This document shows, piece after piece, positions 4,351-10,330 of a DNA stretch of 64,000 nucleotides. The translations under genes and the position numbers were made by a program. Each line of letters starts with the position of its first letter. Position 1 is the first letter of the stretch. The notes beneath the pieces were generated by a model. That model was not told where the DNA came from and searched no databases. It saw nothing but the letters and a program-made list of their open reading frames with translations. Origin of the DNA: the human T2T-CHM13v2.0 reference genome, Homo sapiens; assembly GCF_009914755.1 (NCBI RefSeq), contig NC_060933.1, one strand, 5' to 3'.

Positions 4351-4569
4351 CTCGAATTTATTGCTGGAGAAAAAGCACCATCTTAAACATTGATCTGAAG
4401 CATCTTATCTCACATGCTGGAGGTCTTGGAGTTGTGTGACTTCTGCTGTTCTATGTAATTACTGACGTGGCTTGAGGGGAAAGTGGGACTGCTCTAGTGG
4501 GGAGAACAGATGCAGAACCTGTTCTGGAGAACCTCACATACATTGAAGGTGCTGCTTTAAGAAAGTCCT

Positions 4570-4876
<307 letters not shown>

Positions 4877-5635: not shown

Positions 5636-5957
5636 TTATTTATGTATTTATTTACTTATTTATTTTTTTGAGACAAGGTCTCATTCTGTTGCCTTGGCTG
5701 GAATGTAAGGACATAATCATGACTCACTGTAGCCTTGAACTCCTGGGCTCAACAGATTTTCCCATCTCAGCCTCAGAGTAACTGGGATTACAAGTGCACA
5801 CCACCATGCCCAGTTAATTTGTAAACATTTTTCTTTTTGTAGAGACGAGGTCTCACTATATCAATCAGGCTAGTTTCGAACTCCTGTCCTCAAGTGATCC
5901 TCCCACCTCAGCCTCCCAAAGTGCTGGGATGACAGATGTGAGCCATCTCACCCAGCC
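5636..5957 (-). mobile_element. Alu SINE (AluJ)
   Basis: AluJ-type motifs (cactgtagccttgaactcctgggctca, gtgatcctcccacctcagcc), (TTTA)n tail. Confidence 0.9.
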
Positions 5958-7901
5958 AATCTTTATTTTTCATTTTGCTTTAAAAAAAACAGCTCACACT
6001 TGCTTGAATTTTGTTAACTTGATAAGTTGCCTCAAGCAGCAACAGAGTCTAAAATGTACAGACAAACCCAGCAATGAAAATCACTGCTTGAGGAAGATTG
6101 TAACAGCTTGAACCTGGCAAACAGTAAATAAGACTGGGTCATTTTCATCCTTTTATACCCATCTGGTGGTGGTGGTTAGTTTTCTAAAAGGGTAGAGTAC
6201 TCCGAAGTTTCTGTGGTCTGGTAAATTTTGGGTCTGTGGTTACGCGACTGATTTTAATCACATCTCTACTCTGGGATACCCCAATACCTGAGGGTTAACT
6301 GTCTGGGTACCCAGTAATATCACTGAATCTTCAAATCCTGGACAGAAAACTCAGATGAAGTGGTTAGTCACCGTGTCATGGCTGGACAGTTAATGGGTGC
6401 TTCATTCTAGCTGAGCTGAATCCAAGTCAAAGACCTAACCAAAAGGGGAGGGCACAGAAGTAAGGGCTTTTTTTTTTTTTTAATGAACTTCCCCTTTGAC
6501 AGCTGAGGGCTCACAGATTTCAGGGGGGTGAATTTCTAGGACCCTGTCTGGTAGAAGGGGAAGACTTCTCAGCACTAGGACAGGGAGTGGGACACTCTTC
6601 CTTCATAACCACCTTGGGGAGTTCACAACTGCTTTTCCCCTAGAGAAGAGGCAGACTATAAATACAGAATGAAACTAGAATATTTCTCTAATAGGGAAAA
6701 TTATTTTTTCTCCTCCTCCTTTTTCACTTGACTTGCTTTTGGGCTAAACAAGATTCCTCTGCTTCCCCCACCAAGTTATTTCTATACTGACACAGTGAAT
6801 ACTGGATCTTCCACCTTCCCAAGAGAAAGATGAAGGAAATTGGTGGTCTTTTAAAAAGGCAAATCAAAATGCATTCTTGCCAGGTTCTTTTATTTTTCCA
6901 CATCATTTTCCCTAATACTAGAATATCTTCCCTAGCTACTCCGGTTCAGTTGAAAACAAAGCTGAAGTACAGCAGTTTTGATCTCAGTGTTGGTGGAAGC
7001 CCTCCCTACTGCCAGCTCTCCTTTGGGGAAGGTGGGAGACAGAGAACATTGATTTTCAGAGGCTGGGGTCCCTCTCAGCTTCCCTACTACAGGCGGTCCA
7101 TGAAGACCCTGTCCCCTATTCTCCTCCTTCCTCTGCTTCTCTCCTCCTGAAGTCCTGAAACCCAAAGCCAATATATTTGCTTCTTCTGTATTCAGCAAAT
7201 GCCTAGGATTATCATTTACATTTAGCAAAATGCTAATGAGGACCTAATTATAATTCCATATTTAAAACCATTAGACCCCGAGATACTGTATTATTCACTC
7301 ACCCACCCCCCAGTTGTTTTTTAAGTGTGGGGAAGAAAGGCAGAAAGAGGTTCTTCTCTGGTCTAGGTGGTTTAAGTAAAAGCCATCCTCAGGCCCAGAA
7401 AAACAGAATTGCAAAGGCACTTAGGTTTCAGAATTTGAGCTGGAAGATGTAACCGCACAGGGGGCCAGGAGCAAGGTGACTGAGGGAGGCTTTGGCTGGA
7501 AATGCATCCCACCTGCCCAATGGTGCAGCTTGTGTACAAGTGTTGGGGGTGGGCAGCCAGCAGCTTCTTCACACAGAGGCCCCCGCTCCCAGCTGCCTGG
7601 CTCTGCCTGCCTGAGTGTCCAACAGCGTGTTGATACAACTCTCTTCATGGTGGCCTGAGCTCACTCTAACCCTCTTGAACAGGGCATTTGGGAAAGCAGG
7701 TTTAAAAACTCAACCACTTCTTCCTTCTGAATGGCTGCAGCAGCCTGATTTTCATGTGGCCTAGAACATTCTGCCAGGCTCTTCCACAACAGTGAAGCCG
7801 AAGGCCCCATGCTCTGAGATGAGCTGGTAGGGCAGTGAGAGGCAGCTTCTGCTGAGCCTGTTTGCACTCTGTCATCCACATGGTGCAGCATGCCTGACAC
7901 C

Positions 7902-8367
7902 TGTGAAAGGAAAATAAGAGCTCAGGACCCCAGTTCACAGTGCCAAAAGGAAAAACATGAGCAGAAAGCTGAGGCATGCAAGAAGCTGCCTTTCCTTTTG
8001 TTCCTCAGCAGACAGCTACAGATCAAGGTGAAACATCTCCACAGTTAGCTGCTCTATGTTCACCATATCTTATGTAAAGTGCTGACTTACTGAGCCCAAG
8101 ATTAATATGTCATGGACTATTCCTCTGCCTGCTCCTTTTCTCTTGCCACATGTGAATTCTGTTATGTGACCATAACCTCCCTCTTTCTCCTCCAGCCTGC
8201 TTGTCCCCTTTAAATACTCAAAAGCCCTCAAAAGCATCTTTGGAAAAAGACATAGACCAAACTGTTTCTATGATTCCGTGTTTGTTTCTTCCAGGCATGT
8301 TCTTAACATTGGCAAAATACACTTTTAAACTGATTGGGAGCTGTCTCAGATACTTTTTTGGTTTACG
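7902..8367 (+). mobile_element. ERV1 solo LTR, MER4C-like, inserted in the pseudogene 3'UTR
   Basis: Begins TGTGAAAGGAAAATAA, ends ttggtttacg (terminal CA mutated to CG), 466 bp, 4-bp TSD cacc at 7898-7901 and 8368-8371. Confidence 0.88.
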
Positions 8368-8397
8368 CACCCAACCTGCCAGGTGCCACCTGGCCTG

Positions 8398-9670
8398 CTA
8401 TATGGGGAAGAAGTAATCTCTATTGCTGATGTCATAAGGCCTCCACGGGTCCCTGGCATCTGGTCAGCCGTGGCTGGGGGTGGTGTCCATTCCAAGGCTG
8501 CTGGGGGACACTGAAGGGAGATGAGAGGAACAAGCACTGGGGTGGTTCTAGGTCTCTCTAGGACCAGCCACCCCAAAGAACACAACCAGTGCATCCTGAT
8601 CTTATCTTCTTTCAGACCCTGCAACTTCCACGTCTTCTTTAACCCAGAAAGCTTGTTGCATTTGCAGAATCTCTGGGGAGAATATTATCATCATCTTTAT
8701 TAGTAGTAGGTGTTTGCATGGAGGTGGTCTCAGCTGGAGGACTCCTGGAGTCTGCCCAAAGGGTTCCCATGACCTCTGGGCTCCACTTACTTCACAAGCC
8801 TTGCCCCAGCTCCTCCTGGGCCTGAAGCTGTGTCTGGTGCCTCATGCCTTTCCAGGTGTTGTGAATGACACACTGATGTTGGAGATCCTTGGCCATCCAT
8901 GTTATGAACATTTTTGACTATTTAGCCAGGTATCAAAGCTCAAACCATAGTCTGTAGAAATATAAGTTCCAGGAGTGGGGGTCTTGCTAGGTGACGTTGA
9001 GCCAGCAGGGCTTTCTGGCCACAGCAATGACTGTGATGTTGACAGGTGGGTCGGACTGCAGGATTCCATAACCCTCTAATATTTGGGTTTTGCTGAACTT
9101 GCTCCCAATACTGTTGGTGACACACAGGGACACTGTATAGAAAGAGTAATCTCCCTCTGGCACTGCCAACTGGCAGAACTTCTGGGACTCCTGAGAATAC
9201 TGACACGGCTCCTGGAAGAGTTCTGCCTGACAGTTCTGAAACTTTCTCACCAATAGCACAGCTTTGACTCAGAACCTTGACTCCAAGGACTCTATTCACA
9301 ACCAATGTCACTGAGGGGGCTCTTCCAGAAGCAGGAGAGCTGAGGCTCCTCAGGAGAAACATCCACCAACAAAGCACAGACCTGCTGGGCAGCCAGCCCG
9401 GCAGCAAGAATAGTTTCCAGAGTCGCAGAGCTGCACCAACCTCAGAAGCAGCCTCCTTCCCACACCAGCCCATCTGCTGGGGCGTGAGCCTGCGCTGGGA
9501 GTCCTGTGCAACCAGTGGACAGTGGCATGATTTTCAGGTTCTCCCTCTGGACAGGTCAGGGGAATGCAGTATCCTGGTCAGCACATCACTCACTGCCTCC
9601 AGCGTAGGGCAGCCTCTTGGGCCAGCACTGCCCGCAGTGTGGCCAGCAGCACTCAGCTGATGGCCAGCAT
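8398..9670 (-). pseudogene. IL6RP1: Disabled IL6R CDS homology within the pseudogene
   Basis: GGAAGC-ATG at 9670 reads ATG CTG GCC ATC AGC TGA (stop at codon 6); further stop TAG at 8989-8987 replacing Trp of VTWQDP; frameshifts; parental-position TAG at 8400-8398. Confidence 0.92.
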
Positions 9671-9905
9671 GCTTCCTTCTTGGCTAATGCCCAGTGGTCC
9701 CAGAGAGGTGGATGGACTGGTGGGAACCAGGAGGCAGAGGCAGGGTGACAGGTGGGCAGGTGGGCTCAGGACAGGGGGCAGCCCCCATTCGGTTCCCTCT
9801 GGCCCCGCCCAGCCTGGCTCAGTAGGGGTCAGTGCGATTTCCCACTCCCATAACTTGGAGCAGTGACGGGTACTGACAATGCAGGAAAACATCTTGAAAT
9901 TCACT

Positions 9906-10330
9906 TTGTAAAGTGACTTGGCTAGACCAATTTATTTTCCCATCAATAGTGAAAAAGAGGACCTGTTTCTTCCCAGTCTTGACCTATTAGTGAGATACGA
10001 AATGTTGATTTTTTGCCAGTCTAACAGGTATAATTTTAATTTGCATTATTTTATAATGATATTCTAGTATTTTCTGAACAATCTAAGTTCTTCATTTAAT
10101 GAAGTAGAACATTTTAAATATTTTTATGAGTTTGTAAAATTTGAGTCTTGTTTAAAGAGCTTTCTCATCCCCAAGCTGATACAGATAACTTCCATCATCA
10201 TCTAATAGTTTATAATTTTGCCTGTTATAATTGCTTATAATACTTTTATACTTTTTTACCTTGCTTTTTAGTTAACGTTCGAGGCTCCTTTCAATGTTCT
10301 CAACTCTTCAAACAAGTGTTCTTTCTGGAA
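9906..10330 (-). mobile_element. Old L1ME ORF2 3' fragment
   Basis: tttttgccagtctaacaggt..ttttaatttgcatt antisense L1 motifs. Confidence 0.6.

What the first reader, a model, noticed from the sequence alone, without database searches (positions are those of the whole stretch)
8610..8690. IL6R retrocopy lacks exactly the 94-nt transmembrane exon: a fossil of the spliced soluble IL-6R isoform
Seen: the minus strand reads ...gattctgcaaatgcaacaagctttctgg|gttaaagaagacgtggaagttgcagggtctga, junction between 8644 and 8643. Known (from memory): human IL6R has ...ACAAGCCTCCCAG, then the 94-nt TM exon ([27 protein letters not shown]), then GTTCAAGAAGACGTGG. Skipping that exon gives the soluble isoform ending GSRRRGSCGL*. 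The pseudogene is short by exactly that length and in that frame reads G*RRRGSCRV*. Inference: the retrotransposed mRNA was the exon-skipped isoform, so this splice event existed in germline or early embryo before the MER4C LTR inserted. That would give a minimum age for splice-generated IL-6 trans-signalling. Caveat: the junction bases tttctgg also resemble the exon's own 3' end (TTCTGAG).
Basis: partly seen in the sequence, partly recalled or inferred. Interest (0 to 1): 0.8.

Follow-up and report, generated by a model that had tools for sequence, protein, structure and literature searches.

The report
IL6R retrocopy lacking the transmembrane exon
The old, dead chromosome 9 copy of the interleukin-6 receptor gene was made from a messenger RNA that had skipped the membrane-anchor exon, so it preserves an early record of the splice form that today encodes a soluble receptor.

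Summary
I rebuilt IL6R exons 1-10 from the same genome (chr1) and checked their splice sites. Exon 9 is 94 nt and encodes residues 357-386 of the 468-aa receptor, including the transmembrane helix. The chr9 retrocopy (IL6RP1, minus strand) is colinear with exons 1-8 and exon 10. It has one 94-nt gap exactly where exon 9 belongs, with the junction at window 8644|8643. That gap is the largest of 33 deletions; the next largest is 45 nt. Exon 9 has no match elsewhere in the window and occurs only once in the genome, in the parent gene.

Skipping exon 9 in the parent gives a 365-aa ORF ending GSRRRGSCGL, the published tail of the spliced soluble receptor. The retrocopy reads G*RRRGSCRV* at that position.

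The 7 junction bases match the exon 8 end at only 3 of 7 positions. They fit the exon 9 end better, but only with a second 1-nt gap.

The retrocopy is longer than annotated, about 9922 to 5990, and is split by a nested solo LTR. It is dead: 8 stop codons and 7 frameshifts. Divergence (K about 0.24) suggests roughly 55-95 Myr by recalled rates.

Orthologues could not be checked. The fossil dates the mRNA, not trans-signalling function. It is a modest result and was not found in print.

The parts
8374..9922 (-). 5' part of the IL6R processed pseudogene. It holds about 316 nt of 5'UTR, exons 1-8, and exon 10 up to about 20 nt past the stop codon. The annotated IL6RP1 span (8371-9787) begins about 135 nt too late at the 5' end.
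   Evidence: Exon-by-exon matches to chr1. A local alignment extends the 5' end to window 9922, equivalent to chr1:153542398.
8644..8713 (-). Exon 8-derived segment of 70 nt. Its last 7 nt (8650-8644, TTTCTGG) differ from the parent CTCCCAG at 4 of 7 positions, all transitions.
   Evidence: Such dense mismatch is not rare in this copy: 214 of 3372 seven-nt windows have 4 or more mismatches.
8643..8644 (-). Exon 8 | exon 10 junction. The 94-nt exon 9 (transmembrane exon) is absent here.
8374..8643 (-). Start of the exon 10-derived sequence. In the skipped frame it reads G*RRRGSCRV*, against the parent's skipped tail GSRRRGSCGL*.
   Evidence: translations; 81% identity to chr1:153602285-153602548.
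7904..8373 (.). Nested solo LTR of about 470 bp. Read on the minus strand it starts TG and ends CA. A possible 5-bp target duplication, CAGGT, lies at 8378-8374 and 7903-7899.
   Evidence: Most of the 72 matches are to this stretch (78-84% identity, many chromosomes). Boundaries were read. Pairwise K to 5 other copies is 0.20-0.23. The family name was not testable.
5990..7903 (-). Continuation of the retrocopy: about 1.9 kb of IL6R 3'UTR, equivalent to chr1:153602555 to about 153604765. It is not included in the IL6RP1 annotation.
   Evidence: 78% and 72% identity blocks. No homology was found further 3'.
5650..5955 (-). Full-length Alu inserted at or next to the A-rich 3' end of the retrocopy.
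   Evidence: Alu-type matches to many loci; sequence read.

Best explanation
IL6RP1 is an L1-type processed pseudogene. It was made by reverse transcription of an IL6R mRNA in which exon 8 was spliced directly to exon 10, skipping the 94-nt transmembrane exon 9. This is the same splice event that today yields the differentially spliced soluble IL-6 receptor (DS-sIL-6R).

The copy landed on chromosome 9 without a promoter and has decayed neutrally since. It was later hit by a solo LTR just after the stop codon and by an Alu at its 3' end.

Shown here: the exon structure, the exact 94-nt absence, the nesting order and the decay. Inferred: that the absence arose by splicing before retrotransposition, that the source cell belonged to the germline or early embryo, and the age (about 55-95 Myr). 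The data do not say whether the skipped mRNA was then a regular isoform or a rare mis-splice.
For: 1. The parent exon 9 is defined independently from the genome. It is 94 nt with ag/gt flanks and encodes residues 357-386 of the IL-6R alpha chain.

2. The global alignment shows one 94-nt gap coincident with exon 9. It is the largest of 33 deletions; the others are 45, 25, 15, 14, 13 nt and smaller.

3. Under one scoring scheme the skipped reference aligns better: score 144.6, one optimum, no gap at the junction. The full-length reference scores 140.0, has 8 co-optima, and needs a 93-nt gap plus a 1-nt gap.

4. The genome-derived skipped mRNA encodes 365 aa ending GSRRRGSCGL. This is the unique C-terminus reported for DS-sIL-6R (passages in PMC5218472 and PMC2192917).

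5. All other exon-exon joins (1/2 through 7/8) are intron-free and colinear. That marks it as a processed copy.

6. No exon 9 sequence occurs elsewhere in the window or the genome apart from the parent. One search found no second IL6R retrocopy.

7. Decay looks neutral: 8 parent-frame stops and 7 frameshifting indels out of 9 CDS indels. K2P is 0.29 at third codon positions against 0.18-0.19 at first and second positions. That pattern fits a neutral copy paired with a constrained parent (inference).

8. My own rough odds (inference): a random large deletion hitting one internal exon exactly has a probability of about 1e-5 to 1e-4. A minor splice isoform has a prior of at least 1%.
Against: The 7 nt at the junction (TTTCTGG) match the exon 8 end (CTCCCAG) at only 3 of 7 positions. 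They match the exon 9 end (TTCTGAG) at 6 positions if a 1-nt gap is allowed, so a deletion that kept the tail of exon 9 is not formally excluded.

Both exons end in AG followed by G. A microhomology-mediated deletion or a reverse-transcriptase jump would therefore leave the same product as splicing.

No orthologous locus in another species could be inspected.

The usual retrocopy hallmarks at the ends are weak. The only poly(A) trace is a short A-rich stretch next to an Alu. The best candidate target-site duplication is no better than chance: 86 of 500 shuffles reach its score.
Confidence: 0.9

Rival explanations
1. The retrocopy was made from the full-length (membrane-form) mRNA. Exon 9 was lost afterwards through a genomic deletion of about 94 nt, either one 94-nt event or 93+1 nt retaining the last 7 nt of exon 9.
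For: The local alignment to the full-length reference aligns the junction heptamer to the 3' end of exon 9 with 6 matches and a 1-nt gap. Other deletions of 13-45 nt have occurred in this copy. The AG/G microhomology at both exon ends could favour such a deletion.
Against: It needs a deletion whose net length equals the exon length exactly and whose ends fall within 0-7 nt of both exon boundaries. It would be the largest deletion in 3.4 kb, about twice the next largest. The 93+1 version needs two events and scores lower than the skipped model (140.0 against 144.6). Mismatch density at the junction under the skip model is ordinary: 6.3% of 7-nt windows are as bad or worse.
Confidence: 0.06
2. 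The L1 reverse transcriptase switched template position on a full-length mRNA, jumping from the exon 10 start to the exon 8 end at the AG/G microhomology. This would create the deletion during retrotransposition rather than by splicing.
For: Only the 2-3 nt microhomology at the two exon ends. It rests on general knowledge that retrocopies can carry internal deletions from template jumps (recalled, not tested).
Against: The coincidence argument is the same as for a genomic deletion: 2-3 nt microhomologies occur throughout the mRNA, so nothing favours this pair. Meanwhile the identical exon 8-exon 10 join is a documented natural splice product.
Confidence: 0.02

Closest known systems
DS-sIL-6R mRNA, the differentially spliced soluble IL-6 receptor isoform of human IL6R
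   Same: It has the same exon 8 to exon 10 join and the same 94-nt loss. It has the same frameshift into a 10-codon tail with the stop at the same place. The parent's skipped ORF is 365 aa ending GSRRRGSCGL, as in the passages of PMC5218472 and PMC2192917.
   Different: The chr9 sequence is a dead genomic copy, not a transcript of IL6R. Its tail reads G*RRRGSCRV* (7 of 10 residues kept, with a stop at the second codon). The upstream frame is broken by 7 further stops and by frameshifts.
Processed pseudogenes as fossils of ancient splice variants (Shemesh et al. [quoted passage not shown]
   Same: The logic is the same: a retrocopy records the exon composition of the mRNA it came from, including exon-skipped isoforms.
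   Different: I saw only this paper's entry in the reference list of PMC5470649. The paper itself is not held, so its content is recalled. I could not check whether IL6R is among its cases or in its supplements.
IL6RP1 / IL6RL1 as annotated (RefSeq pseudogene, 9q22)
   Same: Same locus and same parent gene.
   Different: The annotation spans 8371-9787 only. The copy actually runs from about 9922 to about 5990, with the LTR nested inside. In the searched literature IL6RP1 appears only in gene lists and in one review that gives its map position. That review contains no occurrence of 'spliced' or 'alternative splicing'.

Membership tests
Processed pseudogene (L1-mediated retrocopy) | All introns precisely absent, with exons joined at the parent's splice junctions | tested here: met
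   Exons 1-8 and 10 are colinear with no intron sequence. The parent boundaries carry ag/gt: 8 of 8 internal exons, with the exon 1 donor read.
Processed pseudogene (L1-mediated retrocopy) | Located away from the parent gene | tested here: met
   The copy is on contig C9 and the parent on C1.
Processed pseudogene (L1-mediated retrocopy) | 3' poly(A) tract | tested here: inconclusive
   There is only a short degenerate A-rich stretch at about 5985-5960, directly beside an inserted Alu. Homology to the parent 3'UTR ends near chr1:153604765-153604790.
Processed pseudogene (L1-mediated retrocopy) | Flanking target-site duplication | tested here: inconclusive
   The best flank match (9938-9927 against 5969-5956) is reached by 86 of 500 shuffles.
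Processed pseudogene (L1-mediated retrocopy) | Disabled reading frame with neutral decay | tested here: met
   There are 8 parent-frame stops, and 7 of 9 CDS indels shift the frame. K2P is 0.18-0.19 at codon positions 1 and 2, against 0.29 at position 3.
Copy of the exon-9-skipped (DS-sIL-6R) isoform | Absence of exactly exon 9 (94 nt), with exon 8 abutting exon 10 | tested here: met
   A single 94-nt gap at the exon 8/9 boundary, with three equivalent placements because of the shared AG. The alignment to the skipped reference is gap-free.
Copy of the exon-9-skipped (DS-sIL-6R) isoform | Absence predates insertion, meaning it is shared by every orthologue of the pseudogene | not testable with these tools
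   No primate or other mammalian genome is held. Only the window's own genome could be searched.
   No repeat library is available. What is shown: a repeat of about 470 bp running TG...CA, with many dispersed copies at 78-84% identity, nested in the retrocopy.

The most novel reading that the evidence does not exclude
Exon 9 skipping of IL6R was already a regular, germline-expressed isoform in stem or early primates, roughly 55-95 Myr ago. [quoted passage not shown] The genome's only IL6R retrocopy derives from what is now the minor isoform, which hints that the isoform was not rare in the ancestral germline.
Probability: 0.3. Interest if true: 0.5.

Novelty: new member of a known kind. Interest (0 to 1): 0.35.

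Why it matters
[quoted passage not shown] This splice form contributes about 1-20% of serum sIL-6R (PMC5218472).

A dated retrocopy of the skipped mRNA is a physical record that this splice choice was being made tens of millions of years ago. It turns the question 'when did splice-generated sIL-6R arise?' into a simple presence/absence survey of one locus across primate genomes.

It does not show that the protein was made or that it acted in trans-signalling.

Tried and rejected
1. Extending the retrocopy beyond window 5990. A sensitive blastn of window 6100-3000 against chr1:153604600-153609000 found only Alu-to-Alu matches.

2. Target-site duplication. The best candidate is not better than shuffled sequence.

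3. Exon 9 displaced elsewhere. There are no hits in the window and only the parent in the genome.

4. A junction too diverged to be the exon 8 end. Rejected, because 214 of 3372 seven-nt windows have 4 or more mismatches.

5. Literature on the origin of IL6RP1. Searches for 'IL6RP1', 'IL6RL1', 'IL6R'+'processed pseudogene'+'chromosome 9', and 'interleukin 6 receptor pseudogene' returned 1, 2, 0 and 1 papers. I saw only the search listings. For PMC8057292 I read passages. None links the pseudogene to the spliced isoform.

6. Other literature steps. One search failed on a too-short term. One phrase search found nothing. Shemesh et al. 2006 is not held.

7. Ortholog inspection and repeat-family naming were not possible with the tools at hand.

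Full report
**What is in the window.** The bases tttctgg lie at 8650-8644 and gtt at 8643-8641. Searching the annotated pseudogene span against the window's own genome returned the locus itself plus seven separate pieces on contig C1, in exon order. A more sensitive blastn against the fetched parent stretches placed exons 1-6, 8 and 10 at 70-92% identity. The parent is the IL-6 receptor alpha gene. The translation of one parent exon matches PDB chains named 'Interleukin-6 receptor subunit alpha' at E about 1e-34.

**Defining the parent exons without recalled sequence.** I scanned the 15-kb interval between the exon 8 and exon 10 matches for open, hydrophobic stretches flanked by ag and gt. The only non-repeat candidate is chr1:153591640-153591733. 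It is 94 nt and encodes [30 protein letters not shown]. This peptide matches residues 357-386 of the 468-aa chain 8qy5_C (E 5e-12). Exon 7 (47 nt) was found by short-word blast.

- All eight internal exons are flanked by ag...gt, and exon 10 is preceded by ag.
- I first set the exon 1 donor one base short, then corrected it to 153542798 from the sequence printed.
- The exons joined in a script give a 468-aa ORF.
- Leaving out exon 9 gives a 365-aa ORF ending GSRRRGSCGL.
- That tail is the one given for the differentially spliced soluble receptor in passages of PMC5218472 and PMC2192917.

**The gap.** A global MAFFT alignment of the retrocopy (LTR removed) against the full-length exon concatenate has 47 gaps: 33 deletions and 14 insertions in the retrocopy. 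One gap is exactly 94 nt and sits at the exon 8/exon 9 boundary. It is the largest; the next are 45, 25, 15, 14 and 13 nt. The aligner places it 2 nt to the left of the boundary because exons 8 and 9 both end in AG. The three placements are equivalent, and one of them is the exact removal of exon 9.

A focused alignment used one scoring scheme for both references:

| Reference | Score | Optima | Gaps at the junction |
|---|---|---|---|
| Exon 9 skipped | 144.6 | 1 | none |
| Full length | 140.0 | 8 co-optima | 93 nt plus 1 nt |

Exon 9 has no match elsewhere in the window (14 chance hits of 10-16 nt, best E 0.26). It has a single match in the whole genome, the parent itself. One search found no second IL6R retrocopy.

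The seven bases before the junction (TTTCTGG) agree with the parent exon 8 end (CTCCCAG) at only 3 of 7 positions, and the four differences are all transitions. With a 1-nt gap they agree with the exon 9 end (TTCTGAG) at six positions. A deletion that retained the tail of exon 9 therefore cannot be excluded from this locus alone.

It is much less likely, for three reasons:
- It needs two events.
- Its net length would have to equal the exon length by coincidence.
- Mismatch density at the junction under the splice model is ordinary for this copy. Of 3372 seven-nt windows, 214 (6.3%) have four or more mismatches.

My own rough estimate (inference) is about 1e-5 to 1e-4 for a random large deletion that removes one internal exon exactly. 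The prior for a minor isoform is at least 1%.

**Extent and history of the copy.** The retrocopy is larger than the annotated 8371-9787.

- At the 5' end, homology reaches window 9922, equivalent to chr1:153542398, which is 316 nt upstream of the ATG.
- At 8373-7904 it is interrupted by a repeat of about 470 bp that runs TG...CA and has many dispersed copies at 78-84% identity. A possible CAGGT duplication flanks it. This is a solo LTR. I could not verify the name MER4C.
- Beyond the LTR, the IL6R 3'UTR continues from window 7903 to about 5990, equivalent to chr1:153602555 to about 153604765.
- It ends in a short A-rich stretch next to a full-length Alu at about 5955-5650.
- No further homology follows, and no significant target-site duplication was found (86 of 500 shuffles).
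- The parent 3'UTR carries a full Alu (chr1:153603746-153604021) and a left-arm-only Alu with its own flanking repeat (about 153604771-153604900). The retrocopy lacks both and reads through both insertion sites. Both therefore entered the parent after the copy was made.

**Decay and age.** The copy has 8 stop codons in the parent frame. It has 9 indels within the coding part, of which 7 shift the frame. K2P distances to the parent:

| Region | K2P |
|---|---|
| 3'UTR (1853 sites) | 0.238 +/- 0.013 |
| Third codon positions | 0.286 +/- 0.032 |
| First and second codon positions | 0.19 and 0.17 |

This pattern is what a neutrally decaying copy paired with a constrained parent should show (inference). 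Half the neutral distance is about 0.12-0.14 substitutions per site. With recalled neutral rates for the human lineage of about 1.5-2.2e-9 per site per year, this gives roughly 55-95 Myr. That places the event around the origin of primates. The calibration is from memory and is loose.

The nested LTR fits this age. Its K2P to five other copies is 0.20-0.23, and all 15 pairs among the six copies average 0.197. Those five were the best-scoring copies, so the values are biased low.

**Meaning.** The best reading is that an exon 8-exon 10 spliced IL6R mRNA existed in germline-lineage cells of an early primate ancestor and was retrotransposed. [quoted passage not shown] It makes up 1-20% of serum sIL-6R (PMC5218472).

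The fossil pushes the splice event itself far back in the primate lineage. It does not show that the protein was made or used, and one retrocopy cannot separate a regular isoform from noise.

The general idea that processed pseudogenes record old splice variants is established (Shemesh et al. 2006). I saw only its reference listing. Its content is recalled, and the paper and its supplements were not available.

In the searched library, nothing connects IL6RP1 to the spliced isoform. Pseudogene databases may still record it.

**Verdict.** The functional extension is unproven. This is a new example of a known kind of fossil and is of moderate interest.

Noticed in passing
L009:5141-5234 (parent exon 9, chr1:153591640-153591733): This genome's IL6R encodes VQASSS where the PDB chain 8qy5_C has VQDSSS, so it carries Ala instead of Asp at residue 358. 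From memory this is the common Asp358Ala shedding variant.
   Followed up: partly
window 9788-9922 and 5990-7903: The RefSeq IL6RP1 span (8371-9787) omits about 135 nt of 5'UTR-derived sequence. It also omits about 1.9 kb of 3'UTR-derived sequence lying beyond the nested LTR.
   Followed up: yes
L010/L013, chr1:153603746-153604021 and about 153604771-153604900: The parent IL6R 3'UTR holds a full Alu and a left-arm-only Alu with a flanking AAAAAGGCAGG repeat. Both are absent from the retrocopy, so both are younger than it. Subfamilies could not be assigned.
   Followed up: partly
window 4568-4875: A further Alu lies downstream of the retrocopy. It matches other Alus at up to 87% identity.
   Followed up: no
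L009, chr1:153587239-153587300 (IL6R intron 8): A (GT)n microsatellite lies just downstream of exon 8. It appeared as CVCVCV false candidates in the exon scan.
   Followed up: no
window 9792 / chr1:153542533-153542577: A 45-nt deletion in the GC-rich 5'UTR part of the retrocopy is the second largest gap. Alignment there is ambiguous: one search splits it differently.
   Followed up: partly
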